Shown here: positions 26,566-45,493 of the stretch, in pieces
How the letters are laid out: each line of letters opens with the position of its first letter
Numbering within the stretch: the first letter of the stretch is position 1
NCBI GenBank assembly: GCA_964388035.1
Contig: CAYLZE010000008.1
Span: 10,239-74,238 of the forward strand
DNA: 64,000 bases
Source: an uncultured archaeon
GTDB taxonomy: Archaea; Asgardarchaeota; Lokiarchaeia; Sigyniarchaeales; SOKP01
Direction: 5' to 3'
Notes under the pieces: model-generated
What the model was told of the DNA's origin: nothing
Databases searched by the model: none
The model's input: only the letters and a program-made list of their open reading frames with translations
Program-made: the position numbers and the translations under genes

Positions 26566-26566
26566 G

Positions 26567-28393: not shown

Positions 28394-28501
28394 ATTACAT
28401 TCTTGTTCCAACATTCATTCCTACCTTTTTACTTAAAACGTCTCAATTTTTTTAACTTTAGCATAGAATTATTTTGCTTCGCTTAATTAAAGAAATTGAA
28501 A

Positions 28502-31671: not shown

Positions 31672-31915
31672 TCTATTTTATCACTCTTTTAATAAAAATG
31701 AATTGAGATATTTCGATTTTATTATTAATATTATAGCGTTATTTACATAAAAATCTATTTAAATTCTATTTGAAAAAACCGCAAATTGAAGTGGAAGGAT
31801 ATAACTTGTTTAAACATTAAAGACATAGAATTTAAATCTTAATTTTTTTATTACTTATTTAAGCAATTTCATATTAATTATATTTATAATGAATTATTTA
31901 TAGAGAAGAATTTGC

Positions 31916-32263: not shown

Positions 32264-32377
32264 CTTCAATAATCCCCTATAAAAAAACTAAGTTATAAGA
32301 AGATTTTATTGCTTTTTCCTATTTTTTTTTAAATTTATCATTAAAAATAACTAATTTTGTTTAGAAGTTATAAGGTA

Positions 32378-35300
32378 TTATTCCTTATCAAGACCCTCTT
32401 TCTTTAATAAATCGTCTAACTTAACTTTAGCTTCTTTCTCTTCTTTTTTAGCTTCTTTCTCTACCGTTGGTTTTTCTTCAGAAGGTACTTTTTTTGTTTC
32501 ATCAGTCTTTAATTCTGAAACCTTGACATATTTACCTTTTACTTTTTTCACTTTGGGTTTCGCTTTTTCCAGAGGGGTCTCAATCTTACGGATCAGTTTT
32601 CTTGCATACCAAATAGTAAAAAGCCAAATTCCTCCAATTCCTATTAAGATTGATACAGTCATGACAACAGATGGGAAAGGAGGATCCAAGATATCTAAAG
32701 AAGTCTTACCTTCAGTTCTCACAATTTGTTTAGAAAGGACATTTTGTCCTTTAATAGTCACCGTAATATTCAACAAGTCATAGGTTGTATCAGGTACAAA
32801 AAAGTCTATAGTAATTGATGTAGATTCACCTGGTTTCAATCGAGCTAATTCATAATTATTTATGGCAACGATGGTAAAATTAATTCCCTTTTCCAATGCG
32901 ATATTGGTCTCTAATATTGAAACTGTAGAATTCCCCGTATTTAATATAGCAAAAGTTAAAGTTCCATTTTCATTACGATACACGGCTTGATTCGGTAGAA
33001 CATCAAAACCTAGAGAAAGTTCATTAAACTCGGAAGTAATATTGATAGGAATTTCATGACTTTTACTTAGAAAATTACTATCTCCTGGCCAATATAACCG
33101 AAATTTAAAATCTTCCATAATATATAGGGGCACAGTATCAATTTCAAATTCTAATATTCCCTCCGAATCAGATCTTACACCTGTAATGTTTATCCAAGAC
33201 GTTCCATCAAAATACTCGCAGGAAACTATTTTACCCGCTAAGATTTCATTAAACTCTGTCTCCATGATGGAAGAAATAGTTACCGTATCTCCTTCAATGG
33301 GATTTTGGGGCGTATAAGTAATATTTACAAATTTGCTATTTATTTTAAAAATATTTGATATATTTGAACTTATTAAAATACTCATGTAATTTTCATCAAA
33401 TAGGTTCACGATAAAATAGGTTTTCTTCGGAGAATACAGACATTCATCTCTTTCAAACACTTTTGTGATAGTATTACTTGAAGTATTGAATGAAGTCTTG
33501 GTTGAAATGATTTCTCCTTCGAAATCATGTTCATCTGCAAGCGTAATTAAAGAATATTGTGGACTATCAAAATAACCCACATTTTTTCCTTCAATATATA
33601 TTAATACTCTTGTTTTTACTCCGCCTAACCTCATGGGACAATTAACACCTTTCCAGGATTTTGTTGCGGGATCATATTGAGGCATCATCATGCTTAAATT
33701 ATACATGATGCTATCTTGATTGTTGCCAAAATATTTCAATAACACGGTATCGCTTGAATTTTCGGCGATAATCCATTGATCATTTGCCAAAGACAAGAGT
33801 TGTACTTTAATCCTGACATTGAGATCGGTTATGTCATCTCTGTTTTGAAGCAAAATTTTAAATGTAATTTCCTCTCCTGGATTCAAAATGCTCTCGTTTT
33901 GTCTGAATGAATTTAAAGATACGTCAAAATCTAAACTTCCTAACTCGTAAGAAAATAATTGGTTGATAGAAAGATTACTAATGGTATAATAATCAGGTCT
34001 GTTTGTACCGGTTGTTTCATTAACAGTAGCCATTAGGATGGAATATTTATTAAGAATTCTCGTGATAAAATTTCCCTCAAGCACGTTACTTCCTACTTCG
34101 GGATAGAAAGTTGCTCCCGTTAAATCTACCTCATAATCATTTATTTGAATGAAAACCTTTTTACAGCCAATTGCAGTACCATTAGTCCAAAAAAAGCCAA
34201 TTTGGTAGCGCCCCAAAATGGGGATGGAAGTAGTGATATTAATGATAGTATTGTTAGAAAAATCATATTTCAAAAGGGAATCAATCAAAACACCATTATT
34301 AGAAAAGAGTTCTGCAGTGGGAACTCTCGTATTATTGGGATAAAAAAGAGTAGCATTCACACTTCCTCCGTCTGGAGCAATCCCAAATTCATCTTGAATG
34401 TATACGCTCAAAGACACGTTATCTCCATACATGAATCCTTCTGTTTCCCATAAAATGCCTTCAAAATTAATGAAACTATGCATTTGATTAATGGAATTAT
34501 AGCTTGTCAAATTTAGCACGTAAGAGCCGTTATATACGGGCATTGATACATTTATTAAGGCGGTGGTTAGAATTAATTTATTAAATAGAGGGTCGTCAGA
34601 TAATTCTGAAGCACTCCCTATTTGATCGAGAACATCTCCATCAAGGGGGTTTGGTGTTGTTAGATTAAGGGGTGTCCAATAATTAGGAAATATAAACCAA
34701 TATTCTGTAAAATTCCAGTTAGGATAATATTGATTTGGATCGAGCGTATCATTTAAAGTCCAGAGAGGAATATCGTTATAATATATCTTAAATAGGGCGG
34801 TGACATTTTCATATCTATAAATTTTAGCAAGGTAAGTCACGTTAAAAAGTAAACCTTTTGTAAGAGTGATATATCCTGTAAAATTAACAAAAAGTGTATT
34901 AAAGCGATCAGCTTCAATATAATCCGTAAGATCATGGAGCCATCGACCGCTTCCCCATTCCATTATATTAACATTACTTTCATTATATGGATAAACATCA
35001 ATTCTTTGGTCAACAAGTGTTAAATTCTGTATTCTTAACTCACCATTAAAATCGGAAGGCATATATCCTCGTGTAACGTTTAATTCAAAAGAACTTGCGT
35101 CTAATTGTGTAGATGTATATGGAGTCGAAGTAGTTTCAATTAACTTTTTCGCATTAGTCCACGTAACCCCATTATTGGTGGTTCTTTTTAATTGCTGTTC
35201 TAATTTTCCATCCCCAATTGATGCATCAGAAGGGATGGTAACTAAGCTATAGATTAAATCGCTCGAACTTGAGTTTATCACAATAAAATAATTTCCAATA

Positions 35301-36538
35301 CCCAGGTTCACCGCATTAATTGAACTTAAATCAAAATAAGTAATTCCATCCCCTTTAAAAGAATCTATCAAAATCGAACCTAAATATTGAGAATAATCAG
35401 GAGATATCATAGTTTTTTGTAATCCATCGCTATCCCGCACGATAGAATTATTAGACCTGTAAAGACTAATATTTAATTTAACTCCAGAAGCCATCGTTCG
35501 ATTTAACGTTCGTATCCAGGCATTAAATCCATTAATGGTCGTTCCTTCACCTCTCAAATCAAATTCTAATGCCACATAAGATTCACTAGTAATCGGAAGA
35601 TCAAAAGCTAATGCTGCTTGCAAATCAAATTCGAATAATGAGACATTAAAAGTGGAAGAATGATCCGTTCTGTTAAAATAGAACTGAATTAGAGAAATAT
35701 CACTCGAATTAATGAAATCCAAATTGGTGTTTATGAATCTCTCATCTATTTGCTGGGTTATGGGAAGACTACTATTTATTGGAATAATATCGGTTATATT
35801 AATCCATGCGCCTTGAGTGACGTTCCAAGCTTTAATGGTAAGATTTGCATCTAAAGTGATATTGAATTTTATGGAGAGGAGAAATCCAAGAATTTCTGTA
35901 CGATTAAACACGGTTTCCACGGTTCCACTTGGGGGGACATTATCAGTTGAGGTAGATTTGGAAAAATTCGCATTAATAGAAAAATTTAAAGCTCCATTTT
36001 GAGAAGTAAGGTTCCAATAAGTGATAAGATTAGAAATGGCTGTAAAATCTTCGTTTAATGGATTTTGACCTTCAAGTAGATTCAGACCCGATGTTGGTTT
36101 ATTATATGGATATAAAATCATCTTGCTAGGATCCAAACTGGTTAAAGCATTGTCATTTTCAATGACATGTTCCGTGGTGTAATTATTATTGAACGTGAAA
36201 TTAAAATCTCCATGACTGAGATTCATGTAATTATCGGGGACGGATATATTAAAAGATCCCAAATTATTATTGGAATAGGATTGATTTACAAAATAAGTCC
36301 TAATAGTTTGATTATCACCGTGTCCAGTAATACTTTCATTTGCTTTTAAATTAGAATTGGAACTGGTAAGATCATTTTTATTATATTCTTTATCAGGAAT
36401 AGAAGAATCATTATTAATCGATTCTTGATTTGGATTCAACATTCCAAAATTGTTAAATTGACTAAGAGTTGTTAATAAGAAAATTGCTACGATAAAACTT
36501 ACACTAAAGACCTTAAAAGCTTTTTTTTTCGATAGCAA
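32378..36538 (-). CDS. giant cell-surface protein (S-layer/adhesin-like), N-terminal signal anchor, C-terminal TM anchor, Lys/Glu-rich cytoplasmic tail
   Basis: 1386 aa. N-terminal hydrophobic segment FKVFSVSFIVAIFLLTTL and C-terminal TM VVMTVSILIGIGGIWLFTIWY, followed by a KKVKGKYVK...EKEAKKEEKEAKVK tail. I counted about 55 N-x-S/T sequons by hand. Confidence 0.75.
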   Translation of the reverse strand: MLSKKKAFKVFSVSFIVAIFLLTTLSQFNNFGMLNPNQESINNDSSIPDKEYNKNDLTSSNSNLKANESITGHGDNQTIRTYFVNQSYSNNNLGSFNISVPDNYMNLSHGDFNFTFNNNYTTEHVIENDNALTSLDPSKMILYPYNKPTSGLNLLEGQNPLNEDFTAISNLITYWNLTSQNGALNFSINANFSKSTSTDNVPPSGTVETVFNRTEILGFLLSIKFNITLDANLTIKAWNVTQGAWINITDIIPINSSLPITQQIDERFINTNLDFINSSDISLIQFYFNRTDHSSTFNVSLFEFDLQAALAFDLPITSESYVALEFDLRGEGTTINGFNAWIRTLNRTMASGVKLNISLYRSNNSIVRDSDGLQKTMISPDYSQYLGSILIDSFKGDGITYFDLSSINAVNLGIGNYFIVINSSSSDLIYSLVTIPSDASIGDGKLEQQLKRTTNNGVTWTNAKKLIETTSTPYTSTQLDASSFELNVTRGYMPSDFNGELRIQNLTLVDQRIDVYPYNESNVNIMEWGSGRWLHDLTDYIEADRFNTLFVNFTGYITLTKGLLFNVTYLAKIYRYENVTALFKIYYNDIPLWTLNDTLDPNQYYPNWNFTEYWFIFPNYWTPLNLTTPNPLDGDVLDQIGSASELSDDPLFNKLILTTALINVSMPVYNGSYVLNLTSYNSINQMHSFINFEGILWETEGFMYGDNVSLSVYIQDEFGIAPDGGSVNATLFYPNNTRVPTAELFSNNGVLIDSLLKYDFSNNTIINITTSIPILGRYQIGFFWTNGTAIGCKKVFIQINDYEVDLTGATFYPEVGSNVLEGNFITRILNKYSILMATVNETTGTNRPDYYTISNLSINQLFSYELGSLDFDVSLNSFRQNESILNPGEEITFKILLQNRDDITDLNVRIKVQLLSLANDQWIIAENSSDTVLLKYFGNNQDSIMYNLSMMMPQYDPATKSWKGVNCPMRLGGVKTRVLIYIEGKNVGYFDSPQYSLITLADEHDFEGEIISTKTSFNTSSNTITKVFERDECLYSPKKTYFIVNLFDENYMSILISSNISNIFKINSKFVNITYTPQNPIEGDTVTISSIMETEFNEILAGKIVSCEYFDGTSWINITGVRSDSEGILEFEIDTVPLYIMEDFKFRLYWPGDSNFLSKSHEIPINITSEFNELSLGFDVLPNQAVYRNENGTLTFAILNTGNSTVSILETNIALEKGINFTIVAINNYELARLKPGESTSITIDFFVPDTTYDLLNITVTIKGQNVLSKQIVRTEGKTSLDILDPPFPSVVMTVSILIGIGGIWLFTIWYARKLIRKIETPLEKAKPKVKKVKGKYVKVSELKTDETKKVPSEEKPTVEKEAKKEEKEAKVKLDDLLKKEGLDKE

Positions 36539-36706
36539 TCTTAAAATACCTAAAGTGTTTAGATTATTTTTTTATAAAATCCTTCATTTCATTAAAAATT
36601 TCCTAATACGAGTCTAAGCATGAGCGGGGAAATTTGTACAAAATTTTATTATCAATAATTTCATTTTTTAACCTAACTTAACTCTGTATGAAATATAGGA
36701 TTTATA

Positions 36707-38059
36707 ATGAGCGAAGAAATTATAATTAAAGAAATTGAGGAAAATACGGAAGAGTATATTACTTTTCTTCAAGAATTGATTCAAACTAATTCCTATAATC
36801 CACCCGGAAATGAAAATAGTGTTGCTGTAAAAATAAAGGAATATCTTGAAAAAGATGGAATCAAATGCGATGTTTATCCTTTTGGAGATAATCGGGCTAA
36901 CGCAATTGCTTATTTAAATGAAAATTTTGATTATAAAAATCTCTTATTCAATGCCCACATGGATGTCGTACCTCCCGGGGAAGAATCGGAATGGAAAAAT
37001 CCCCCATTATCAGCTAATATTAAGCGAAAAAAGATGCTATTTGGTAGAGGCGCAACAGATATGAAGGGCGGTCTTGCTGCAATGGTCATTGCCCTTAAAA
37101 TCTTGAAGAAGTTAAACTTGTCTCTCAAGGGTAATTTAATACTTAATGCCGTGGCAGACGAAGAAATGGGGGGAATATTAGGTACAAAATGGTGCTTAGA
37201 GAATAAGCTAAATTCATTCAAGTTTGATTTTACTGTCGTGGGTGAGCCAACGGGAATTAATCCTCTGCCTAAAGCTGTAGTCGTTGGAGAAAGGGGACAC
37301 TTAATTCTAAAAGTAATCGCAAATGGGATTTCTGCCCATTCTTCCATGCCTTCTTTAGGAAAAAATGCGATATACATGATGAGTGAACTCATGCAAGCAC
37401 TCGATAAAGTAAATAATTATATTCCTGATTTAAAGCCACCATTATCTCTAGAAAAATTAAAAAGTCTTATGAGTAAAGCCTTCCCGAGTAGAGAGATATT
37501 CGAAAATATTCTATCCGATCAAGAACTTTTACAAAATTTGCTCCAATCCTTAGTCACCTTCACTAAGAGTGTCAATATGATTAAAGGGGGAATTAAAGAA
37601 AATGTAGTTCCCGATAAATGTGAAGTCCTGATTGATTTTCGGCTCTTACCGGGACAAAAAGTCGAAGATATTTTCCACGGAATGAGAACTCTAATCGAGA
37701 AAGATTTACACTATAAGGTAGTTGAACTTGAAGAAGTCAAGCCGAACGAGCCATCGTTTACATTAGAAAGCGCAGGTGAGTCGGAAGGTTCTTATTGGCG
37801 AGACTGGGAAAACTCTCCCATCTTAAAGGATTTCATGAAGATAACTGAAGAAATTTACATGAAAACCCCCTTCATCTTGCTGTATCCTGCCGCAGCGGAC
37901 GCCCATTATCTTAGAAATGATGGATATTGCCCAAGCACGATCCTATTTGGTCCCGGAAGTGCGGGTACGGCTCATGCTATTGATGAATACATTGAAATAA
38001 AAGATTTTATTGATTCCATTAAGGTATATGCATTATTTGCATTTAAATTTCTTAAATAG
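36707..38059 (+). CDS. M20-family metallopeptidase (ArgE/DapE/CPG2-like)
   Basis: NAHMDVVP, GRGATDMKGG, ADEEMGG, GERGH. Confidence 0.85.
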   Translation: MSEEIIIKEIEENTEEYITFLQELIQTNSYNPPGNENSVAVKIKEYLEKDGIKCDVYPFGDNRANAIAYLNENFDYKNLLFNAHMDVVPPGEESEWKNPPLSANIKRKKMLFGRGATDMKGGLAAMVIALKILKKLNLSLKGNLILNAVADEEMGGILGTKWCLENKLNSFKFDFTVVGEPTGINPLPKAVVVGERGHLILKVIANGISAHSSMPSLGKNAIYMMSELMQALDKVNNYIPDLKPPLSLEKLKSLMSKAFPSREIFENILSDQELLQNLLQSLVTFTKSVNMIKGGIKENVVPDKCEVLIDFRLLPGQKVEDIFHGMRTLIEKDLHYKVVELEEVKPNEPSFTLESAGESEGSYWRDWENSPILKDFMKITEEIYMKTPFILLYPAAADAHYLRNDGYCPSTILFGPGSAGTAHAIDEYIEIKDFIDSIKVYALFAFKFLK

Positions 38060-38144
38060 AATTCATATTGAATTATTACATGTAAAAATTGATATACACG
38101 TAATTATATTTATTTTTTATATTAATTGTAAACTGAAGTAGAAT

Positions 38145-39323
38145 TTGCGAGACACTACCAAAGTAGAAGACTGTGTTGCCTTACTTGATGTTTCACGTTC
38201 AATGTTAAAAACAGACTTCAAACCGAATAGATTAAATAATGCAATTGAGACCTTAAAAAATTTCATTCACTCCAAGTTATCCTTGGATCCAAGCGATAAA
38301 ATTGCCCTTATCACGTTTGGTGGGAATGCGAAAAGATTAGTACCTTTTACAAATGAAGAAACTATTTTGATAAATTCATTCCAAAAAATTCGCGTGAGTG
38401 GAAGGGGTAACATATCTCAAGGAATTTCTTTTTCTATCCAATTATTAATAAAGGAAATGCAAAAGCTAGGAGGAAAAATTTCAAGAATCTTCATTCTCAC
38501 GGATAATAAAATAATTGAAGAAGATGGAAAATTAAACGAAATTGTTGAAGTAGCAAAGGGATTGGGCGTTTATGTGGATGTGTGTCAAATAGGGAAAACA
38601 GAGGATTATCGTCAAAGCAAATTGAAACTCCTAACTCGGCAGACCGGAGGGGAATATGGATATTTCAATAATACTAAAGCGTTAGTCAATTCTGGAAAAT
38701 CATTCGCTTCCAAAAAAGAATTAAAATTTTCACGCGATTATTTCGCTCGGGATAATAAAAGTGAAAACGCGCCCTTATTAAATGAGATCGCCCTACCATT
38801 AAAGCGACCCTCTGTTTTAGAATTAAAAGCCATGATAAATAGTCACGATACGGATTTAGAAAAATGTCAGATATGTCATTCCATGAAATCTCCGGTAACT
38901 AATGCCGATCTCTATTCCGAGGGGCGCATATGCCCTTCATGTGAGCATCCCATGCATTTATCGTGTGCAGCCATGTGGGCAAAGGGGACAGAATATTCCG
39001 AAAGCGTGTTTCGATGCCCGTTCTGTTATTACCTATTAAAAATACCTACCTCCGCCCTCAAGATTGCTGAGATAAGGCAAGCCAATGCTCAAAACACTAC
39101 TAAAGACACTTTGAAAGAACATAAACAAACAAGAATGAAATTAATCCCTAATGAAGAAGTTGAATCGATTTACGGTTCGTGTAGTTATTGTCGAAATATA
39201 TTCATGGGAGAGCACGATGTATATCAATGCGAGCAGTGCGGGGCTTATTATCACGAACCTTGTCTCCAAAAAATGTTCAAAGAGCTAAAAAGTTGCCGTA
39301 ATTGTGGTGCTCAAATAGTATAA
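38145..39323 (+). CDS. vWA domain (Rpn10/Ssl1-like signature) protein with two C-terminal RING-like zinc fingers
   Basis: The MIDAS motif DVSRSM is followed by TDFKPNRL. The first finger is CQIC-x18-CPSC-E-H-x2-H-x2-C-x16-CPFC, which has RING-H2 spacing. The second is CSYC-x12-CEQC-x4-H-x2-C-x10-CRNC. TTG start. Confidence 0.7.
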   Translation: MRDTTKVEDCVALLDVSRSMLKTDFKPNRLNNAIETLKNFIHSKLSLDPSDKIALITFGGNAKRLVPFTNEETILINSFQKIRVSGRGNISQGISFSIQLLIKEMQKLGGKISRIFILTDNKIIEEDGKLNEIVEVAKGLGVYVDVCQIGKTEDYRQSKLKLLTRQTGGEYGYFNNTKALVNSGKSFASKKELKFSRDYFARDNKSENAPLLNEIALPLKRPSVLELKAMINSHDTDLEKCQICHSMKSPVTNADLYSEGRICPSCEHPMHLSCAAMWAKGTEYSESVFRCPFCYYLLKIPTSALKIAEIRQANAQNTTKDTLKEHKQTRMKLIPNEEVESIYGSCSYCRNIFMGEHDVYQCEQCGAYYHEPCLQKMFKELKSCRNCGAQIV

Positions 39324-39465
39324 TGATTTTCGATATTTGACAATACTTGTTAAGATGCTTGAGAAAATATTAGATTGATAATTTTAATAGAAAAATCTTA
39401 TTTTATTTAATTTATTACCTTTTTCATCTAAATCTAATTTTGTAGTTATTAAGAGGTTGATTACG

Positions 39466-41520
39466 ATGCCTAACGAGGATAAACGAAAATGGGTGGTGAC
39501 TTCGGCTTGGCCTTATGTAAACGCTACACCGCATTTAGGCACGATGGTCGGAAGTGTCTTATCTGCTGACGTTTTTGCCAGATTCCTACGATTATTGGGA
39601 GATGAAGTGGTGTTTGTTTCGGGATCCGATGTTCATGGAACTCCCGTGGCAGTAGAGGCAAAAAAGCAAGGGATTTCTGCTGAGGAATTAGCGGAAAGAA
39701 ATCACGAAATAACCGCTTCATTATTCAAGCGTTGGAATATATCTTATGATAATTACACGCAAACCCATAATCCAACCCATATTGAATTTTGTCAAGATTT
39801 TTATCTTGAAGTGCAAAAAAATGGGTTCGTGGAAGAGAAGGAAATCGAATCGTTATATTGTGAAAAGGATGCCATGTATCTCCCAGATAGATTCGTAGAA
39901 GGGGAATGTCCTTATTGTGGAGCAGAAAATGCAAGAGGGGATCAATGTGATAAATGTCAAAAATTATTAACTCCTTTAGAATTAGTAAAACCTCGATGTG
40001 CGATTTGTGGTAATCCTCCTGTTATTCAGAAAACTAGACACTGGTATTTACTTTTTCCAAAACTACAAGATCAATTGAAAGCGTTTATTGAACAAAATGA
40101 GATCATTCCACAAAATGCCAAGCAATTATGTCTCAATAGTATTGAAGAAGGATTGCCCGAACGTGCTATCACCCGAGATCTGGAATGGGGCATTCCAGCA
40201 AAATTCAAGGGAGCTGAGGGTAAAACTATTTATGTTTGGTTTGAAGCAGTACTGGGATACATTTCTGCAGTAAAGGAGTGGGCGGATAAGATACTTAAAG
40301 TGCCCGAAAAATTCGATTACTTCTGGAAGGATCCTAACACGAGAACGGTTTATTTTATTGGAAAGGATAATATCATTTTTCATTTGATTGTTTTTCCGGG
40401 ACTTATAATGGCTTACAATAAAAATAAAAAGAAAGATGAAAGACTGGTGCTTCCCTATAACGTTTCTTCAACGGAATTTCTCATGTATGAAAATGATAAG
40501 TTTTCTAAATCCAGAGGAGTAGGAATATGGATTGATGAAGCATTGGAATTAGCCCCTTTAGACTATTGGCGGTTCAATTTGATTTATAACAGACCCGAAA
40601 AGAGCGATACGTCTTTTTTATGGTCTGAATTTGAAAATGATATTAAGATGCTAAATGATGTGATTGGAAACTTCATCCACCGCACGTTAACTTTTATCAA
40701 TAAGCAATTCAAGAGCAAAATTCCCGAACAATTAAGCTTCGATGAAAAAGATAAGGCGTTCGCAGTAAAAATTAATTCTATCGCTAAAACTATTGGAAAC
40801 TTGATGGAGCAATTTGAATTAAGAAATGCTCTCCGAGAGATCGTTAATTTTGCGCGAGACGGAAATGTCTATTTAAACGATAAAGCGCCATGGCATCTGA
40901 TTAGCAAGGAGAAAACTTTAGCGGGACAAGTTTTTAACTTATGCGGACAGGCAGTTTATGCTCTTGCAGTTCTACTAGCACCATTTATACCGGATACATC
41001 GCAGAGGATCTTAGAATATTTGAATTATTCTAAGGGATTGGATCACATTGAGTGGAATAGCATATCAGAAAAAGTATTGGAAAATGGGCATTCAATAAAG
41101 AAACCACAACCGTTATTTACAAAATTAGATATTGATGAATTGAAAGAAAAACTAAATGACATTAGGAAGGATAAAAGTAAAATGGTAGAAAAACAGGAAG
41201 ATATTTCATATAATGAATTTAAAAGATTGGATATCAGAATTGCTCAAATACTCGAAGTCGAATCCGTTCCAAAAACAGAGCATTTATTAAAATTGACCAT
41301 TGATATTGGTACAGAAAAAAGAACTCTAGTAGCAGGGTTGGCTCAACATTATAAACCAAATGAATTAATTAACAAAAAAATTGTTGTTCTTACAAATTTA
41401 GAACCGAAAAAACTGAGAGGAATAACAAGTCAAGGGATGCTTTTAGCTGCAGTAGAAGGAGATAAGGTAGCTATTTTAACACCTGATTCAGAAATTCCCC
41501 CGGGAGCCAAGATAGAATAG
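39466..41520 (+). CDS. metG: methionine--tRNA ligase with a C-terminal Trbp111/EMAP-II-like tRNA-binding domain
   Basis: HLGT (HIGH-type) motif, zinc knuckles CPYCG...CDKC and CAICG, KFSKSRG (KMSKS), C-terminal LDIRIAQILEVE...LVAGL. The ATG at 39466 is preceded by AAGAGG. Confidence 0.95.
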   Translation: MPNEDKRKWVVTSAWPYVNATPHLGTMVGSVLSADVFARFLRLLGDEVVFVSGSDVHGTPVAVEAKKQGISAEELAERNHEITASLFKRWNISYDNYTQTHNPTHIEFCQDFYLEVQKNGFVEEKEIESLYCEKDAMYLPDRFVEGECPYCGAENARGDQCDKCQKLLTPLELVKPRCAICGNPPVIQKTRHWYLLFPKLQDQLKAFIEQNEIIPQNAKQLCLNSIEEGLPERAITRDLEWGIPAKFKGAEGKTIYVWFEAVLGYISAVKEWADKILKVPEKFDYFWKDPNTRTVYFIGKDNIIFHLIVFPGLIMAYNKNKKKDERLVLPYNVSSTEFLMYENDKFSKSRGVGIWIDEALELAPLDYWRFNLIYNRPEKSDTSFLWSEFENDIKMLNDVIGNFIHRTLTFINKQFKSKIPEQLSFDEKDKAFAVKINSIAKTIGNLMEQFELRNALREIVNFARDGNVYLNDKAPWHLISKEKTLAGQVFNLCGQAVYALAVLLAPFIPDTSQRILEYLNYSKGLDHIEWNSISEKVLENGHSIKKPQPLFTKLDIDELKEKLNDIRKDKSKMVEKQEDISYNEFKRLDIRIAQILEVESVPKTEHLLKLTIDIGTEKRTLVAGLAQHYKPNELINKKIVVLTNLEPKKLRGITSQGMLLAAVEGDKVAILTPDSEIPPGAKIE

Positions 41521-41521
41521 C

Positions 41522-42745
41522 TCATACTTTTAAAGAAAAAATCGGAGTTAATTTAGCTAGAATTTCTCCTAATTCTAGATACATGGACTTTAAAACCACA
41601 GCTCTCCCACGATATTTGAACTCCAGGTCTGCAACATCGCGAATTATCTTTAACCTCTCTGCTTTTGATAAGGAACAGACAAAATATCTCTGATCTTTAT
41701 ATTCCATGACCTCAATTACATTTTTTATATCTGGTAATGCATATCCTCCTCCGTGTGGTAGGATATTGGCATTTACCAGTTGATCTGAAACTTCTAATTC
41801 TTTTGCTTGGAGATCAAAATTTAAACTTTTTATGATTGTTGACGAGAAATTCGGTTTACCTTTTAATAAATAACAGGAAATATTTGCCCTTAAAGCAACG
41901 GGGAAAATGCTCGATTGGACATAACCACTCATTAAATCCGTACAATTAGCTCCTAAATACATATTATTAAAGTCATTTAAAAATTGATGGAATTGATTGC
42001 TGATTGCTTGATATTTACCAAAAATGTGTTCTGCTATTAATTCTCTTTTAACTTTTGAGAATTTACTTACTTTTTGATTGAAGCGGTAATAGTCTTTTGC
42101 ATTTGAATCTAAAAGCAGATGTTGGATTGTTCCAAATACCGTTGATTCTCTTATAGAAAGATCCTTTAAAGTCTGTGATTTGTCCACGTAAAGGCCCATG
42201 CCATATGTATCATCCTTAAATTCGGGTACAGAACCGTGAATGAAGAATATATAGGGAGGTAACTTAATATCAGAATAATTTTGTATTTTAAAGCAATTTA
42301 TAAAGTGATTTGAAACATTAAAATCCCACGTGATTTTAATATCCCATCCATTTAATGAATAGTAAAGAGGGGAAGTTTTTATTTCGTCAATTTTTTTTAT
42401 AATTTCTAACGCTTCTGGCTTTTCCTCCAAACCACCCACTAAAATTCCACAATAATTTGGTTTTGTATTAAGAAATATGGCATGTTCTTTTCCATTTCCC
42501 CAGTTCAGTTTTCCTCCATATCCAAATCCGGAATTCCAACGGAATGGATTCTTTGAGATGGTCTCATCGGGGGAGGAAATAAAGCAAGCTTTAGGGGTAA
42601 ACCCGTATTTTTCTTGAATAAGGTGAATTTGAGCCAAGCCATAAGCCATGTTCTTTTTACATAAAATAGAAGCACCATCATTAATTCCCGTAGAAAAAAT
42701 GAATCTACTGGCTCTGTTCAATAATTCTGATTTAGATAATTTCAC
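41522..42745 (-). CDS. divergent RtcB-like protein (putative RNA ligase superfamily member)
   Basis: Ordered remnants of RtcB motifs: NYCGILVGG (like D-I-N-C-G), VSNHFINCF (like GSGNHF), IHGSVPEF (like HxGSRG), NQFHQF, LPHGGGYAL (like HGAGR). Confidence 0.4.
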   Translation of the reverse strand: MKLSKSELLNRASRFIFSTGINDGASILCKKNMAYGLAQIHLIQEKYGFTPKACFISSPDETISKNPFRWNSGFGYGGKLNWGNGKEHAIFLNTKPNYCGILVGGLEEKPEALEIIKKIDEIKTSPLYYSLNGWDIKITWDFNVSNHFINCFKIQNYSDIKLPPYIFFIHGSVPEFKDDTYGMGLYVDKSQTLKDLSIRESTVFGTIQHLLLDSNAKDYYRFNQKVSKFSKVKRELIAEHIFGKYQAISNQFHQFLNDFNNMYLGANCTDLMSGYVQSSIFPVALRANISCYLLKGKPNFSSTIIKSLNFDLQAKELEVSDQLVNANILPHGGGYALPDIKNVIEVMEYKDQRYFVCSLSKAERLKIIRDVADLEFKYRGRAVVLKSMYLELGEILAKLTPIFSLKV

Positions 42746-42839
42746 TAAGTTCTGTGTTGCGATGGAAATGAAAGATCCACCTCCGTAGTTTTATTTATGT
42801 ACAATTAAGTATTTATATATACGCATTATATATTTAAGA

Positions 42840-43490
42840 TTGACCGTGTTAAATTACAATATGGACCAGAATATGGTTTTGTATGACGATTTCAAAGGTA
42901 TCCTATCGAATGGATCTTTTACTGGTTGTTCAATCATAACGAAATGTCAGGATTCATCTAATTCCATCATTTTTTCTGATAACATAACCATTTCGGAAGA
43001 TCAGAAAATTGTGATTAAAGAGGGATTGAAAATTGGTTTTAGTTTAAATTTAAATAAGGAAACCGCTTTTTCTGAAAAGAGAGATTTTACCTGGGAAGAA
43101 GATTTTACTTCTTTAGAATATTCCGTATTAATTCCCGAACGTGTCATGGAATTATACGATGAAGGGCGATTTTCTGAATCATATCCTTTCACTATTAATT
43201 TATTGCATACTGCGGGGCTTTTTTTTCGAACAGCAAATGGAGGAAATTTAAACCATCTGGATTTTGTTATTGGAGAAATAATAAAAAATCCCATTTGTTT
43301 AATCGAAAATGGGATTATAGTAGCAGATAGAGTTGTTATTGATGATAGAGGAGATCCCGTTTTTTATGATTGCATTATAGTTGGGAGAGACCAAGAAGAT
43401 AATCTTTCTGTTTCATATGAACCATTTGCAAACGTTTCAGAAGGACTGATTTACATAATCATTTTAGGAAAAGAATCCTTAAGGGAATGA
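42840..43490 (+). CDS. hypothetical protein
   Basis: 216-aa ORF, 10 nt upstream of the P-loop gene on the same strand. No recognisable motif. TTG start. Confidence 0.4.
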   Translation: MTVLNYNMDQNMVLYDDFKGILSNGSFTGCSIITKCQDSSNSIIFSDNITISEDQKIVIKEGLKIGFSLNLNKETAFSEKRDFTWEEDFTSLEYSVLIPERVMELYDEGRFSESYPFTINLLHTAGLFFRTANGGNLNHLDFVIGEIIKNPICLIENGIIVADRVVIDDRGDPVFYDCIIVGRDQEDNLSVSYEPFANVSEGLIYIIILGKESLRE

Positions 43491-43500
43491 AAATATTTGA

Positions 43501-44763
43501 TTGAAAGGGTTAATAAGAATGCTATTATATGAAAATAAAAAGAAGAAATTTTTACGAATACTCCAAATCGGGATAAATCCCTTTCAAAAATTTGTATCTA
43601 CAGGAGAAATCAAGGAAACCCTTGGAATGGTTCCCTCAAGGAAAGATTTTATGGATGCAATCATAGATCTTATCGAGAGTAATGAAAATTTCATTCTCCC
43701 AATCATTGGAGATACTGGAAGAGGAAAGACCCACTTGTTCTGGGCATTACGAAATGAATTAACCTACAATTATATCGTCCATATTTCCCCAGAGAATCTT
43801 TATCGCAAGTTTTATTATAATATATATTCCGAATTCATAGAAACTTTAGGGATAAATGTGCTACGAAGTATAACAAATCAATTATGTAATCAATGGGGCG
43901 CCCTGGAGAGAAAATTTGGATTTTTTTATTTAGCCGATATAGAGAAAGTGCGAAAGATGGCTTTTAACACGTTAGAATCGCAATTTAAAAATAAGGAAGC
44001 CTTAAAGGATGTCATTCAAACCATAACTTCTCATCAATTAGATCCTTATAGAAGGTTGGATGCGGAAAATTGGTTATTAGGGAATATCATGGATTTCAAA
44101 GAGCTTTCAATGTTAAACGTGCAAAATGATCTAAGTAAAAGTATCTATGCCTATACCATGTTAAAATTATTGATCGAAAATGCAAAACTTGAAAGTATTG
44201 TTTTCATTGACGATTTTGATCGAATTCTCTCTCTTTTAAAATTCGAAGAAGAAGTGGAAGAAGTTTTCGATCCAAGTTGGTTATATGGCAAAAATGAAGA
44301 ACAATCTATTTCCAGAAGTAACACCATCATGAAAGTTATTGATAAGATTTCTGAATTAGTGCAGATACAGGGGTTAAAGTGCATTATAACTCTCCGGTCT
44401 CTGGATGCTCTTGAACAAATTAAGGAATTATTCAGCAAAACACATTTAGAAACCTTATCTCTCTTTAAACAACCCTTATTTTTGACAGATTTTAACAGAA
44501 ATGATATTTTTTATTTTTATAGAGAGTATATAAAAATCTTTTTGGACGATATTGGGTTTCCAGAATTATTAGATTTGAATACAGATCCATACTATCCTCT
44601 TACTGAAAAAATCCTTCATGACTTTTTTTCAATTTCCCAAGGAAATCCAAGAAATGTAATTAAGACATTAATCAACATTTTTAACGAAATAATCATGAGT
44701 AATGAAAGTCTTGAAGATATTATCGCAAATTATGAAAAAATAGCTCATCCTAAATCGTTTTGA
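43501..44763 (+). CDS. P-loop NTPase (AAA/archaeal-ATPase-like)
   Basis: Walker A GDTGRGKTH and Walker B-like IVFIDDFDR. The first ATG is at 43519. Confidence 0.55.
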   Translation: MKGLIRMLLYENKKKKFLRILQIGINPFQKFVSTGEIKETLGMVPSRKDFMDAIIDLIESNENFILPIIGDTGRGKTHLFWALRNELTYNYIVHISPENLYRKFYYNIYSEFIETLGINVLRSITNQLCNQWGALERKFGFFYLADIEKVRKMAFNTLESQFKNKEALKDVIQTITSHQLDPYRRLDAENWLLGNIMDFKELSMLNVQNDLSKSIYAYTMLKLLIENAKLESIVFIDDFDRILSLLKFEEEVEEVFDPSWLYGKNEEQSISRSNTIMKVIDKISELVQIQGLKCIITLRSLDALEQIKELFSKTHLETLSLFKQPLFLTDFNRNDIFYFYREYIKIFLDDIGFPELLDLNTDPYYPLTEKILHDFFSISQGNPRNVIKTLINIFNEIIMSNESLEDIIANYEKIAHPKSF

Positions 44764-45493
44764 GGAATATCTTGATGTAAATGTCTATTTCATTCAAGAT
44801 CATTTCTTTAACCTCCTTTTCCCATTTCGCATTCTCAACCAGCAACTTGAAGGAATTTAATGATCCGAATTTTAATGGATTATCAAATATAATAACAAGA
44901 AGCTTACGTATCATTCTTTTATTTAATTTTTTACGAAATTCAGCTTCATTTAAAATATCGAATAAGGCCTTTTCCTCCTTTACATGCTCATTAATTATCT
45001 TAGAAGTAAGCTCCCCAATTCTTGAATTATTATCTTCCAATAAAAGAATGATATCCTTTAAAAGTTCATTATTGATCTCTTTTAAATTACTTATAAAATT
45101 AAGAGCACTGATTCTGATTAAGTCATAATCCTCCTTCAAACTAACTTGGAATAATGACATGTTTTGATCTGAAATGGGATTCATATCCGAAATCTTATCT
45201 AATGCTTGAATTATCTCATTTCGAATCCATCTATCGGAGTTAAAATAAGAATCATTAAGATAATCGATGTATTTTTTTGGAAGTTTTTCTTTTTGTCCAA
45301 TATTCCCTAGTAGATAAATTATATTTATCTTTACTTTTTCAAGGAATGAAGAATTGAAAGAGCTTATTAAAAAATCTATTACTTGTAAGTGATCTGAGCT
45401 AGCATCTTGCCCTAAAGTGAGTAAGACATCATTAATCTTTTCAGGGTTTTTCTCTTTCTTAATGCTTTTCAATATTTCATCTAGTGATTTCAA
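44750..45493 (-). CDS. HEAT/PBS-lyase-type repeat protein
   Basis: Repeats such as NSDRWIRNEIIQALDKISD and EDYDLIRISALNFISNL in an all-helical pattern. The 3' end overlaps the convergent P-loop gene by 14 nt. Confidence 0.45.
   Translation of the reverse strand: MKSLDEILKSIKKEKNPEKINDVLLTLGQDASSDHLQVIDFLISSFNSSFLEKVKINIIYLLGNIGQKEKLPKKYIDYLNDSYFNSDRWIRNEIIQALDKISDMNPISDQNMSLFQVSLKEDYDLIRISALNFISNLKEINNELLKDIILLLEDNNSRIGELTSKIINEHVKEEKALFDILNEAEFRKKLNKRMIRKLLVIIFDNPLKFGSLNSFKLLVENAKWEKEVKEMILNEIDIYIKIFLKTI

What the first reader, a model, noticed from the sequence alone, without database searches (positions are those of the whole stretch)
38145..39323. Rpn10/Ssl1(p44)-type vWA domain fused to a RING-H2 finger and a second RING/PHD-like finger
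- Seen in sequence: a vWA domain whose MIDAS motif DVSRSM is followed directly by TDFKPNRL. The D-F/Y-x-P-x-R-L motif is what I associate with the Rpn10/Ssl1 vWA subfamily rather than generic bacterial vWA.
- After a linker, 38865..39026 encodes CQIC-x18-CPSC-E-H-x2-H-x2-C-x16-CPFC. The spacing C-x2-C...C-x-H-x2-H-x2-C...C-x2-C is exactly that of a RING-H2 cross-brace.
- 39180..39305 encodes CSYC-x12-CEQC-x4-H-x2-C-x10-CRNC, a second cross-brace-like finger.
- The domain order (vWA, then Zn, then Zn) and the length (392 aa) parallel eukaryotic TFIIH p44/Ssl1, which has E3 ligase activity.
- RING-H2 fingers are rare outside eukaryotes and Asgard archaea. With the roadblock genes 6 kb away, this looks like a eukaryote-signature ubiquitin-type E3 or adaptor candidate.
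Basis: partly seen in the sequence, partly recalled or inferred. Interest (0 to 1): 0.72.

Follow-up and report, generated by a model that had tools for sequence, protein, structure and literature searches.

The report
Asgard vWA protein with two RING-type fingers
This gene encodes a strongly conserved, uncharacterised Asgard-archaeal protein whose vWA domain and two RING-type zinc fingers give it the build of a ubiquitin-ligase-type adaptor, and its nearest solved structural match is the eukaryotic TFIIH subunit p44/Ssl1.

Summary
All 16 zinc ligands are invariant in 22 homologues.

Three corrections apply:
- The "RING-H2" histidine (H268) is Arg in most homologues. The conserved ligand set of both fingers is C4HC3.
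- The D-F-x-P-x-R-L motif is not specific to Rpn10/p44. It also occurs in bacterial BatB and in other prokaryotic vWA proteins.
- By profile comparison the vWA domain is much closer to prokaryotic stand-alone vWA proteins than to Rpn10 or p44, and it is equidistant from those two.

The p44 parallel does hold at the level of architecture. The top 23 Foldseek hits in the PDB are full-length p44/Ssl1, and finger 2 has the same ligand spacing as the p44 C-terminal RING.

Finger 1 carries the residues RING E3s use to contact E2 enzymes (Ile243, Trp278, Pro292). The modelled zinc half matches RING E3 domains best. In a paralogous clade, finger 2 hits Arkadia-type RINGs significantly by sequence.

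The family is found across Asgard archaea, has two ancient paralogous clades, and sits next to MetRS. No ubiquitin, E1 or E2 gene lies in the window. My best reading is an E3-type adaptor. This is inferred, not shown.

The parts
38145..39323 (+). Complete ORF, 392 aa (TTG start, stop codon included): vWA, linker, RING-type finger 1, helix, RING-type finger 2. No transmembrane segment.
   Evidence: Homologue N-termini align at residue 1. Maximum Kyte-Doolittle 19-residue window is 0.93.
38163..38714 (+). vWA domain (residues about 7-190), VWA_2 class, ending in the invariant A-S-K-K (188-191).
   Evidence: Pfam VWA_2 60.2 bits, VWA 41, Ssl1 36. AF2 pLDDT is mostly 80-94, with an alternating beta/alpha pattern. 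Foldseek TM 0.85-0.87 to the p44 vWA and 0.83 to Rpn10. hhalign score 249.8 to prokaryotic vWAs.
38187..38201 (+). MIDAS-type D15-x-S17-x-S19 motif. The further acidic MIDAS residue is D120. The usual MIDAS Thr position is not conserved.
   Evidence: D15, S17, S19 and D120 are invariant in 22 homologues. In the alignment to prokaryotic vWAs, their conserved 'GGxT' Thr falls on a variable column of this family.
38214..38234 (+). D-F-K-P-N-R-L motif (residues 24-30) on the first helix of the vWA domain.
   Evidence: D24, F25, P27 and R29 are invariant. The same motif is seen in BatB, Rpn10 and p44 and prokaryotic stand-alone vWAs, so it marks the class and not Rpn10/p44.
38769..38810 (+). Conserved linker motif A-P-L-x2-E-I-A-L-x-L-[KR]-R-P (residues 209-222) between the vWA domain and finger 1. 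Role unknown.
   Evidence: P210, L211, E214, A216, L217, L219, R221 and P222 are invariant. AF2 confidence is low around it.
38865..39026 (+). Finger 1 (residues 241-294). C4HC3 binuclear RING-type finger with Ile243, Trp278 and Pro292 at the positions RING E3s use to contact E2 enzymes. The most conserved segment of the protein.
   Evidence: Ligands are invariant and H268 is not conserved. [IV]-W-x at these positions in about 78 of 84 representatives, I-W-P in 49. Weak Pfam hits to FANCL_C, PHD and zf-RING_16. Beta-beta-alpha core in both models. Mean column identity 0.88.
39048..39095 (+). Predicted helix (residues 302-317) at the start of the less conserved inter-finger linker.
   Evidence: DSSP on the AF2 model. 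Inter-finger mean column identity 0.57.
39180..39305 (+). Finger 2 (residues 346-387). C4HC3 RING/PHD/C1-like finger with the same ligand spacing as the C4C4 RING of p44. It lacks the E2-contact residues (Tyr348, Met377, Arg385 instead).
   Evidence: Pfam zf-RING_2 25.6, C1_1 25.2, Prok-RING_1 25.0 bits, all just under their cut-offs. pLDDT 80-94. HMMER and hhalign place it in register with p44 residues 352-389. In clade B the homologous finger hits Arkadia at 1.8e-8.
38110..38126 (+). AT-rich TATA-like stretch 20-35 nt upstream of the start codon. A possible promoter of the gene's own, implying a short or absent leader. Inference only.
   Evidence: Read directly from the sequence. No archaeal promoter tool was available.
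39457..41520 (+). Methionyl-tRNA synthetase, the conserved downstream neighbour on the same strand.
   Evidence: Pfam. Adjacent in 77 of 83 loci, and still linked in the divergent loci L086 and L087, where the other neighbours differ.
36707..38059 (+). M20-family peptidase, the conserved upstream neighbour on the same strand, 85 bp away.
   Evidence: Pfam. Adjacent in 79 of 83 loci, but not in the divergent loci.

Best explanation
The gene encodes a soluble, cytoplasmic adaptor of the RING E3 type that belongs to a family found across Asgard archaea.

**Proposed mechanism (inferred)**
- The N-terminal vWA domain is the partner- or substrate-binding module. It retains D-x-S-x-S and the distal Asp of a metal-ion-dependent adhesion site.
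- Finger 1 is a cross-brace C4HC3 RING that docks an E2-like ubiquitin(-like) conjugating enzyme through Ile243, Trp278 and Pro292.
- Finger 2 is a second RING/PHD-like finger without those contact residues. It acts as a structural or second-partner module, either as an in-chain 'pseudo-dimer' partner of finger 1 or as a docking site for another protein, in the way the p44 RING docks the p34 vWA domain.

**Relation to eukaryotic proteins**
The architecture (vWA, Zn, RING; about 390 aa) is the one seen in TFIIH p44/Ssl1. This family is therefore a plausible prokaryotic relative of that architecture, without being an orthologue.

**What is shown and what is inferred**
Shown: domain composition, ligand conservation, fold-level similarity, distribution and synteny. 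Inferred: zinc binding, the cross-brace wiring, E2 binding, ligase activity and the target.
For: - Domains and conservation.
- Finger 1 keeps Ile/Val after Cys1 and Trp on the helix in about 78 of 84 cluster representatives across all paralogous architectures. The full I-W-P set is present in 49.
- The model of the zinc half matches RING E3 domains captured with E2~Ub best (RNF165/Ark2C, RNF38, RNF12, RNF13, listerin, gp78, HRD1). Foldseek probability is up to 1.0 and TM 0.55-0.72.
- In the sister clade B, finger 2 hits Arkadia (1.8e-8), ARK2C (8e-8), RNF4 (5e-7), RNF13 and RLIM by sequence alone.
- vWA plus finger 1 is a constant module joined to variable C-terminal parts in several paralogous architectures. 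This is typical of adaptor or ligase families.
- The closest stand-alone vWA (P0210) lies in a cluster of three JAB genes, a vWA, a vWA+Prok-RING_1+FHA protein, a further vWA and a YukD/ubiquitin-like protein. One clade-B member sits head-to-head with a ThiF (E1-family) gene.
- Lokiarchaeota-type Asgard archaea are reported to encode ubiquitin, E1 and E2 homologues (PMC9192718).
- p44-like architecture. The p44 RING itself resembles RNF38 and Ark2C and uses its E2-type face to bind p34 (PMC5737387).
Against: - No ubiquitin, E1, E2 or JAB gene is among the window's ORFs of 110 aa or more, or in the conserved block of about 14 kb in 80 related genomes.
- The only recurrent neighbour is MetRS, which has no obvious link to ubiquitylation.
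- All Pfam RING and PHD scores for the window protein are below their curated cut-offs.
- The Foldseek E-values for the zinc half are weak (0.017 or higher), and parts of finger 1 are modelled at low confidence when the vWA domain is left out.
- The residue after the last Cys of finger 1 is aromatic, not the 'linchpin' Arg or Lys that many active RINGs have (the rule is from my own knowledge).
- Family members are labelled Thorarchaeota in some MAGs, a group reported to lack ubiquitin. Those labels are doubtful.
- Very high conservation (52-57% identity across the clade) is more typical of a subunit of a core complex than of an E3.
Confidence: 0.45

Rival explanations
1. p44/Ssl1-like non-catalytic scaffold. 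The vWA domain binds and regulates a partner enzyme such as an XPD-type helicase. The fingers hold a second vWA-zinc protein (the clade-B paralogue), as the p44 RING holds p34 in the TFIIH core.
For: - The top 23 Foldseek PDB hits are full-length p44/Ssl1 (4e-16 against about 1e-12 for p44 vWA-only entries), followed by p34/Tfb4.
- Length and domain order match.
- Finger 2 has the p44 RING ligand spacing and aligns in register with it.
- Two ancient paralogues with the same build sit 3-4 kb apart in two divergent lineages. This resembles the p44/p34 pair.
- Very high sequence conservation.
- Faint Tfb4 Pfam hits occur in some members.
Against: - The vWA domain is no closer to p44 than to Rpn10, and is far closer to prokaryotic vWAs.
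- The Pfam C1_4 model does not hit.
- Finger 1 is a full binuclear RING, not the C4 finger of p44.
- The comparison of the zinc halves is weak (probability 19%, P = 0.0012).
- Clade B is not closer to Tfb4 (2.6e-5) than to p44 (6e-11).
- No helicase or repair gene lies in any neighbourhood examined.
- The family has many paralogues with variable C-termini, unlike p44.
Confidence: 0.2
2. A vWA-based regulatory adaptor unrelated to ubiquitin. The fingers are only protein- or ligand-binding modules (PHD/C1-like). The protein would work with the translation apparatus (MetRS linkage) or with small-GTPase/roadblock signalling.
For: - MetRS is adjacent in 77 of 83 loci and remains linked in divergent lineages whose other neighbours differ.
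- Arf/Rag-type GTPases lie within two genes of clade-B members in 3 of 7 loci.
- Roadblock genes are in the conserved block.
- Finger 2 scores as well against C1 and PHD models as against RING.
Against: - Linkage within a long, rigidly syntenic block is weak functional evidence.
- Asgard genomes are rich in small GTPases, so some adjacency is expected, and 4 of 7 clade-B loci have none.
- The conserved E2-contact residues of finger 1 would be left unexplained.
Confidence: 0.2
3. An Rpn10-like proteasomal ubiquitin receptor. The vWA domain docks on a proteasome-activating complex, and the C-terminal half captures substrates.
For: Rpn10 is the best single-sequence and profile hit among solved structures (1e-6 and 2.5e-10). 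The 'SGKGxLxEGIAF' loop resembles that of Rpn10.
Against: - There is no ubiquitin-interacting motif. The C-terminal half is two zinc fingers.
- p44 scores equally, and prokaryotic vWAs score far higher.
- No proteasome genes are nearby.
Confidence: 0.05

Closest known systems
TFIIH subunit p44 / Ssl1 (GTF2H2)
   Same: - N-terminal vWA domain followed by two zinc modules, in a protein of almost the same length (392 against 395 aa).
- Best full-length structural match in the PDB.
- The C-terminal finger has the same C-x2-C-x11/12-C-x2-C-x4-[C/H]-x2-C-x10-C-x2-C spacing.
- Both C-terminal RINGs resemble RNF38 and Ark2C.
   Different: - The middle module of p44 is a mononuclear C4 finger. Here it is a full eight-ligand RING with E2-contact residues.
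- The p44 RING is C4C4. Here it is C4HC3.
- Pfam C1_4 does not hit.
- The vWA domain is no closer to p44 than to Rpn10, and is closer to prokaryotic vWAs.
- No TFIIH partners are known or seen nearby.
Proteasome subunit Rpn10 / PSMD4
   Same: A vWA domain of the same class with the D-[FY]-x-P-x-R motif. It is the top sequence hit among solved structures.
   Different: Rpn10 continues with ubiquitin-interacting motifs and has no zinc fingers. Its D-x-S-x-S site is degenerate (DNSEW), whereas this family keeps D-x-S-x-S.
C4HC3 RING variants of eukaryotic E3s (FANCL C-terminal RING, NSE1 RING-like, PHD-type RINGs) and RING-H2 E3s (RNF38, Ark2C/RNF165, Arkadia, RNF12)
   Same: - Eight-ligand spacing and a beta-beta-alpha core.
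- Ile, Trp and Pro at the E2-contact positions in finger 1.
- Best fold matches for the zinc half.
- Significant sequence hits for clade-B finger 2.
- Weak FANCL_C, NSE1 and EL5 hits for finger 1.
   Different: Two fingers in tandem behind a vWA domain. All scores for the window protein itself are below the family cut-offs. No linchpin Arg. Activity is untested.
Prokaryotic vWA proteins of the VWA_2/BatA-BatB class and prokaryotic vWA + Prok-RING fusions
   Same: - Nearest sequence relatives of the vWA domain (hhalign 249.8, E = 3e-36), including the C-terminal 'A-x-K-K' motif.
- A vWA+Prok-RING_1+FHA protein and JAB and ubiquitin-like genes neighbour one of them.
- Finger 2 scores 25 bits on Prok-RING_1.
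   Different: Those proteins are mostly stand-alone or membrane-anchored, with a complete MIDAS (GGxT). This family is soluble, lacks the conserved MIDAS Thr, and carries two RING-type fingers in a fixed 390-aa format restricted, so far, to Asgard archaea.

Membership tests
TFIIH p44/Ssl1 (GTF2H2) | N-terminal vWA domain matching the Ssl1 model (Pfam PF04056) | tested here: inconclusive
   Ssl1 scores 36.0 bits against a cut-off of 27. VWA_2 scores higher (60.2), and Rpn10 proteins also carry PF04056 hits, so the model does not discriminate.
TFIIH p44/Ssl1 (GTF2H2) | C-terminal zinc region matching the TFIIH C1-like model (Pfam PF07975: C4 finger plus C4C4 RING) | tested here: not met
   No PF07975 hit at E up to 10, although vertebrate p44 fragments carry it. 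hhalign of the zinc halves gives probability 19%, P = 0.0012. Finger 1 has eight ligands, not four.
TFIIH p44/Ssl1 (GTF2H2) | vWA domain specifically closer to p44 than to other vWA families | tested here: not met
   hhalign scores: p44 80.2, Rpn10 82.5, prokaryotic vWA set 249.8.
TFIIH p44/Ssl1 (GTF2H2) | Overall fold and domain order like p44 | tested here: met
   The top 23 Foldseek PDB hits are p44/Ssl1 chains aligned over about 390-400 columns, E from 4e-16 to 4e-11.
TFIIH p44/Ssl1 (GTF2H2) | Assembly with XPD, p34, p52 and p62 in a TFIIH core | not testable with these tools
   No such genes are in the window or in the related loci. This needs biochemistry or whole-genome co-folding.
Rpn10/PSMD4 | vWA domain followed by ubiquitin-interacting motif(s) | tested here: not met
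   vWA similarity is present. The C-terminal half consists of two zinc fingers, and no UIM model is hit.
RING-H2 finger (C3H2C3) | Conserved C-x-H-x2-H ligands 3 to 5 | tested here: not met
   H268 is Arg in 19 of 22 homologues, while C263 and C266 are invariant. The conserved set is C4HC3.
RING-type (cross-brace) E3 finger, broad sense | Eight conserved Zn ligands with RING/PHD spacing | tested here: met
   Both fingers. Ligands are invariant in clade A and invariant or nearly so in clade B.
RING-type (cross-brace) E3 finger, broad sense | Score above the curated cut-off of a RING family model | tested here: not met
   zf-RING_2 scores 25.6 against 27.3, Prok-RING_1 25.0 against 29.1, FANCL_C 18.9 against 27.3. 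The homologous finger 2 of clade B does reach E = 1.8e-8 against the Arkadia RING.
RING-type (cross-brace) E3 finger, broad sense | Cross-brace RING fold rather than zinc ribbon | tested here: inconclusive
   Both models show a beta-beta-alpha core, and the best fold matches are RING E3 domains (probability up to 1.0, TM 0.55-0.72). However, E is 0.017 or higher, the model holds no metal, and I could not read its coordinates.
RING-type (cross-brace) E3 finger, broad sense | Hydrophobic E2-contact residues (after Cys1, on the helix, after Cys7) | tested here: met
   Finger 1 has I243, W278 and P292, all invariant. Across representatives I-W-P occurs in 49 and [IV]-W-x in about 78 of 84. Finger 2 lacks them (Y, M, R). 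The rule itself is from established knowledge of RING E3s.
RING-type (cross-brace) E3 finger, broad sense | E2-dependent ubiquitin(-like) transfer | not testable with these tools
   Needs a reconstituted assay.
PHD finger | C4HC3 spacing plus a score above the Pfam PHD cut-off | tested here: not met
   The spacing fits, but PHD scores 17.0 against a cut-off of 24. Peptide-binding cage residues were not examined.
Prokaryotic VWA_2 (BatA/BatB-like) vWA proteins | vWA domain with D-x-S-x-S, D-[FY]-x-P-x-R and distal S/T-D-G motifs | tested here: met
   VWA_2 is the best Pfam hit. hhalign E = 3e-36 to the stand-alone set. The MIDAS Thr is not conserved, and the membrane anchors of BatA/BatB are absent.

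The most novel reading that the evidence does not exclude
The two ancient Asgard paralogues (clade A, to which this gene belongs, and clade B), both built as vWA plus zinc fingers and still adjacent in some lineages, form a heteromeric module. On this reading, that module is the direct prokaryotic ancestor of the eukaryotic intracellular vWA-zinc proteins, namely the p44-p34 pair at the heart of TFIIH. The ancestor was an active RING E3, and its ligase function was later lost or reduced, with the reported Ssl1 E3 activity as a remnant.
Probability: 0.1. Interest if true: 0.85.

Novelty: new variant of a known kind. Interest (0 to 1): 0.58.

Why it matters
Eukaryotes have a small set of intracellular vWA proteins (Rpn10, p44, p34, Ku, Sec23/24) embedded in core machines. 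Their prokaryotic origins are poorly resolved. This is a soluble protein found across Asgard archaea and constrained very strongly in sequence. It combines the same class of vWA domain with two eukaryote-type RING fingers, in the exact order and size of p44.

If it is an active E3, it would be a substrate-recognising ligase for the Asgard ubiquitin system. So far only minimal RING proteins have been studied from archaea.

If it is a scaffold, it points to an unrecognised conserved complex in the closest archaeal relatives of eukaryotes.

Either way it gives a concrete, expressible 392-aa protein with clear point mutants for testing. I found no paper in the held library that describes it. I could not check the supplementary ESP/asCOG tables of the main Asgard surveys.

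Tried and rejected
- **Literature.** Searches for Asgard with p44, TFIIH, Ssl1, Rpn10, vWA, von Willebrand or RING found nothing on this family. The TFIIH-like item in PMC9258230 concerns an XPB/Rad25 homologue. PMC12962969 does not mention it, and its supplements are not held. Two key papers could not be opened: Liu et al. 2021, and Burroughs et al. 2011 on prokaryotic RINGs.
- **Pfam as a discriminator between generic VWA_2 and Ssl1/Rpn10.** Rejected, because Rpn10 and p44 themselves hit VWA_2 and Ssl1.
- **NCBIfam.** Gave only weak generic vWA hits.
- **A paralogue in the window.** None found.
- **Ubiquitin-system, proteasome or TFIIH partner genes among the window's ORFs of 110 aa or more.** None found. 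Short ORFs the size of ubiquitin were not scanned.
- **Clade B as a p34/Tfb4 counterpart.** Not supported. Tfb4 scores 2.6e-5, against p44 at 6e-11 and a bacterial vWA at 1.4e-18.
- **Small-GTPase linkage of clade B.** Seen in 3 of 7 loci only, so left as a lead.
- **Full-length eukaryotic p44 sequences.** The search returned only fragments and vertebrate isoforms, so the p44 zinc-half profile is shallow.
- **Model coordinates.** I could not read them, so zinc-ligand geometry was judged only from secondary structure and Foldseek matches.
Full report
**1. The observation**

The ORF at 38145..39323 (+) exists, starts with TTG and encodes 392 aa. An identical protein of the same length is already called in the public collection, and the N-termini of the homologues align from residue 1.

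All the listed motifs are present at the stated coordinates:
- DVSRSM (residues 15-20), followed after two residues by TDFKPNRL.
- Finger 1 (38865..39026): C241-x2-C244-x18-C263-x2-C266-x-H268-x2-H271-x2-C274-x16-C291-x2-C294.
- Finger 2 (39180..39305): C346-x2-C349-x12-C362-x2-C365-x4-H370-x2-C373-x10-C384-x2-C387.

Two roadblock/LC7 genes lie 5.9-6.8 kb upstream. The protein has no hydrophobic segment long enough to span a membrane.

**2. Conservation corrects the reading of finger 1**

A search of 5.8 billion proteins found 327 relatives. The best 120 are all about 390 aa, 51-72% identical, and named only 'VWA domain-containing protein' from Asgard MAGs (Promethearchaeota, Lokiarchaeota, Thor- and Hodarchaeota labels).

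In an alignment of 22 of them, all 16 Cys/His ligands are invariant. H268, the residue needed for the 'C-x-H-x2-H' RING-H2 reading, is not conserved. It is His only in the window protein and its two nearest relatives, and Arg in the other 19.

The conserved ligand set of finger 1 is therefore C241, C244, C263, C266, H271, C274, C291, C294. This is C4HC3, the same type as finger 2.

Finger 1 is the most conserved part of the protein, with mean column identity 0.88. Finger 2 has 0.83, the vWA domain 0.73 and the inter-finger linker 0.57.

**3. The vWA domain**

*Database hits.*
- Pfam gives VWA_2 60.2 bits, VWA 41.0 and Ssl1 36.0, against an Ssl1 cut-off of 27.
- Against solved structures, the single sequence hits Rpn10 (1e-6), bacterial BatB (2.5e-6) and p44 (5e-5).
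- The family profile separates these. Rpn10 scores 2.5e-10 and p44 2.7e-10, while a bacterial vWA (4rck) scores 5e-5 and BatB 1.6e-3.

So there is real affinity to the Rpn10/p44 pair among solved structures. Two further tests show it is not exclusive.

*The motif.* The D-[FY]-x-P-x-R-L motif also occurs in BatB (DVQPSRL). It occurs as well in a set of stand-alone prokaryotic vWA proteins found by an exhaustive profile search of 1.84 billion representatives (consensus D-x-S-x-S-M-x3-D-Y-x-P-x-R). One of these is from Patescibacteria.

*Profile-profile comparison.*

| Comparison | hhalign score | E-value |
|---|---|---|
| Family vs p44 vWA | 80.2 | 1.5e-10 |
| Family vs Rpn10 vWA | 82.5 | 3.5e-11 |
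| p44 vs Rpn10 | 83.7 | 1.3e-11 |
| Family vs prokaryotic set | 249.8 | 3e-36 |
| Prokaryotic set vs Rpn10 | 133.3 | 1.8e-19 |
| Prokaryotic set vs p44 | 97.3 | 1.5e-13 |

The prokaryotic set was chosen as the best hits to the family, so its closeness to the family is partly built in. Its higher scores to Rpn10 and p44 are not built in, although its greater sequence diversity helps it.

The vWA domain therefore belongs to the broad VWA_2 class. It is about equidistant from Rpn10 and p44 and has closer prokaryotic relatives.

*Metal site.* The D-x-S-x-S motif (D15, S17, S19) and D120 are invariant. The usual MIDAS Thr position is variable.

**4. The zinc half**

*Secondary structure.* AlphaFold models of the whole protein (pLDDT 74.7, pTM 0.65) and of residues 228-392 (pLDDT 69.7, finger 2 at 80-94) give each finger two short strands followed by a helix that carries the sixth ligand. 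That is the RING/PHD treble-clef core and not a zinc ribbon.

*Fold matches.* Foldseek of the zinc half against the PDB returns RING E3 domains first: RNF165/Ark2C, RNF38, RNF12, RNF13, listerin, gp78, HRD1 and Rbx1. Probabilities reach 1.0 and TM is 0.55-0.72 over 46-64 columns. C1 and tandem-PHD entries rank lower. E-values are weak (0.017 or higher), as expected for 50-residue domains. I could not inspect the coordinates, so cross-brace wiring is supported but not proven.

*Sequence scores for the window protein.*
- Finger 2: zf-RING_2 25.6, C1_1 25.2 and Prok-RING_1 25.0 bits, each just below its cut-off.
- Finger 1: weak hits to FANCL_C (18.9) and PHD (17.0), and to NSE1, FANCL and EL5 chains.

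*E2-contact residues.* Finger 1 carries the three hydrophobic residues that RING E3s use to hold an E2 enzyme. They are Ile after the first Cys (I243), Trp four residues after the sixth ligand (W278) and Pro after the seventh (P292). The rule is established knowledge of RING E3s.
- All three are invariant in the family.
- Among the 50%-identity representatives that contain finger 1, I-W-P occurs in 49 and [IV]-W-x in about 78 of 84.
- Finger 2 has Tyr, Met and Arg at these positions.

**5. The p44 parallel**

Foldseek of the full model puts p44/Ssl1 chains in all of the first 23 places. The alignments span about 390-400 columns, that is the vWA domain plus both zinc modules, with E from 4e-16 to 4e-11. 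They score better than p44 vWA-only entries (about 1e-12, TM 0.85-0.87) and Rpn10 (4e-11, TM 0.83). p34/Tfb4 and BatB follow at about 1e-10.

Vertebrate p44 sequences show C-x2-C-x11-C-x2-C-x4-C-x2-C-x10-C-x2-C in the C-terminal RING. Finger 2 has C-x2-C-x12-C-x2-C-x4-H-x2-C-x10-C-x2-C. HMMER and hhalign both place the two in register.

The statistics for the zinc halves are weak (probability 19%, P = 0.0012, shallow p44 profile). The Pfam model for this region of p44 (C1_4) does not hit. The middle module of p44 is a four-Cys finger, whereas finger 1 has eight ligands.

In the hhalign alignment, the two Cys pairs of the p44 finger fall on ligands 3-4 and 7-8 of finger 1. That would be consistent with a RING that lost one zinc site, but this is speculation.

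The published p44 RING structure is itself most similar to RNF38 and Ark2C, and it uses the E2-type face to bind the p34 vWA domain (PMC5737387). p44's finger is classed with RING-like binuclear treble clefs (PMC4506424).

**6. Family structure and distribution**

*Size of the family.* The exhaustive search found 2280 proteins at E of 1e-3 or better, and 63 at 1e-30 or better.

*Two clades.* A rough neighbour-joining tree splits the full-length members (365-418 aa) into two clades. Clade A contains the window protein. Clade B is about 28-33% identical to it and has the same vWA, finger 1, finger 2 build.

*Linked paralogues.* In two divergent lineages, both clades sit on one contig, 3-4 kb apart and flanking MetRS:
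- L086 has P0122 (clade A) and a 404-aa clade-B gene.
- L087 has P0130 (clade A) and a 401-aa clade-B gene.

*Clade B against solved structures.*
- Finger 2 hits RING E3 domains significantly by sequence: Arkadia 1.8e-8, ARK2C 8e-8, RNF4 5e-7, and also RNF13, RLIM, RNF24 and RNF38.
- The vWA domain is closest to a bacterial vWA (4rck, 1.4e-18), then Rpn10 (2.5e-13), p44 (6e-11) and Tfb4 (2.6e-5).

*Other architectures.* Further paralogous architectures keep the vWA domain plus finger 1 and replace the rest. Examples are proteins of 404-473 aa with coiled-coil tails and of 619-686 aa with long C-terminal regions.

*Taxonomic spread.* A pattern scan of one genome per GTDB species found 123 relatives. 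The best 80 carry Asgard or generic 'uncultured archaeon' labels, apart from one contig labelled as an actinobacterium that carries the whole Asgard gene block and is evidently mis-binned.

**7. Genomic context**

*Gene content.* The window (GC 33%) holds metabolic and housekeeping genes. No ubiquitin, ThiF/E1, E2, JAB, proteasome or XPD/XPB gene is among the ORFs of 110 aa or more.

*Conserved block.* The block Robl, a 1386-aa surface protein (-), M20 peptidase, this gene, MetRS, and four proteins without clear Pfam assignment is conserved almost without change. M20 is adjacent in 79 and MetRS in 77 of the 83 loci examined (the 80 scan loci plus three fetched earlier). That reflects rigid synteny in this clade and says little about function.

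*MetRS linkage.* Only the MetRS linkage survives in divergent clade-A loci.

*Hints of a ubiquitin-like connection.* These are few. A ThiF gene sits head-to-head with one clade-B member. The nearest stand-alone vWA relative lies in a cluster of three JAB genes, a vWA, a vWA+Prok-RING_1+FHA protein, a further vWA and a YukD/ubiquitin-like protein.

*Possible promoter.* An AT-rich TATA-like stretch 20-35 nt upstream of the start suggests the gene has its own promoter. This is inference.

**8. Interpretation**

*What is shown.* This is a soluble family, found across Asgard archaea and under very strong constraint. It is built from a VWA_2-class vWA domain and two C4HC3 RING-type fingers, and its overall build matches p44/Ssl1 better than any other solved protein.

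*Mechanism I think most likely (about 0.45).* An E3-type adaptor:
- The vWA domain binds the partner or substrate.
- Finger 1 docks an E2-like enzyme.
- Finger 2 supports finger 1 or binds a second partner.

*Main rival (about 0.2).* A non-catalytic p44-like scaffold, perhaps paired with the clade-B paralogue.

*Other rivals.* A non-ubiquitin adaptor role tied to MetRS or small GTPases (about 0.2). An Rpn10-like receptor role (about 0.05).

*Membership.* It is not a member of the p44 family as defined by Pfam's zinc-region model or by vWA sequence affinity. It is not a RING-H2 finger. It works, at the level of architecture, like p44 and like vWA-RING E3s.

**9. Novelty**

The held literature contains no description of this family. 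Public annotation is generic: 'VWA domain-containing protein', or 'YegL/RPC12'. I could not check the supplementary protein tables of the large Asgard surveys, so prior listing there cannot be excluded.

I rate it a new variant of a known kind (vWA plus RING-type fingers, p44-like architecture). It is of moderate to high interest for the origin of eukaryotic intracellular vWA proteins and for the Asgard ubiquitin system.

Noticed in passing
window 31387-45493; loci L001-L083: A block of about 14 kb is conserved almost gene for gene in about 80 species-level Asgard genomes whose proteins are only about 50-57% identical. Its order is Robl, 1386-aa surface protein (-), M20 peptidase, vWA-2xRING, MetRS, hyp407 (-), hyp216, hyp420, HEAT-like 247 (-). 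This is unusually rigid synteny for unrelated genes.
   Followed up: partly
window 41522-44763 (ORFs 41522..42745 -, 42840..43490 +, 43501..44763 +): Three conserved proteins (407, 216 and 420 aa) downstream of MetRS have no Pfam hit at E of 1e-3 or better, yet are retained in most related loci (55-66 of 83).
   Followed up: no
window 32378-36538 (-): A 1386-aa protein with an N-terminal hydrophobic segment, a very high density of N-x-S/T sequons, a C-terminal transmembrane helix and a Lys/Glu-rich tail. It has no Pfam hit. It is probably a heavily glycosylated surface protein and is conserved in the block.
   Followed up: no
window 25404-32263 compared with L001 666-2217 and L002 599-2191: In related genomes the order is Lactamase_B, Robl, Robl, all on one strand. 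In the window about 5 kb (ferredoxin, aldehyde:ferredoxin oxidoreductase, LarA-N-like, DUF4037) lies between Lactamase_B and the roadblock genes, and the first roadblock gene is inverted. This is a local rearrangement or insertion.
   Followed up: partly
L086 4771-10560; L087 1720-8052: Clade-A and clade-B vWA-2xRING paralogues lie 3-4 kb apart on either side of MetRS in two divergent lineages. In L086 an Arf/Ras-type GTPase lies directly upstream of the clade-B gene.
   Followed up: partly
L086 8223-9140; L088 109-1737; L092 1890-3098: Arf/Rag/Roc-type small GTPases lie within two genes of clade-B paralogues in 3 of 7 loci examined. Asgard genomes are rich in such GTPases, so the significance is uncertain.
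   Followed up: partly
L088 2158-2973 (-): A 271-aa ThiF-family (E1-like) gene sits head-to-head, 154 bp from the clade-B member P0128.
   Followed up: no
L091 1-10735: A gene cluster of unknown taxon: three JAB-domain proteins, a small vWA (P0210, among the nearest relatives of the family's vWA domain), a membrane vWA+Prok-RING_1+FHA protein, another membrane vWA protein, and a YukD/ubiquitin-like protein. It looks like a prokaryotic ubiquitin-like/vWA system.
   Followed up: no
L008 (DATKTW010000029.1): A contig labelled 'Candidatus Nanopelagicaceae bacterium' carries the complete Asgard gene block (Robl, surface protein, M20, vWA-2xRING, MetRS and the rest). It is almost certainly mis-binned or mislabelled.
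   Followed up: no
window 39457-39468: The mechanical MetRS ORF starts at TTG 39457, but an in-frame ATG follows at 39466 (TTG ATT ACG ATG). The true start is ambiguous.
   Followed up: no
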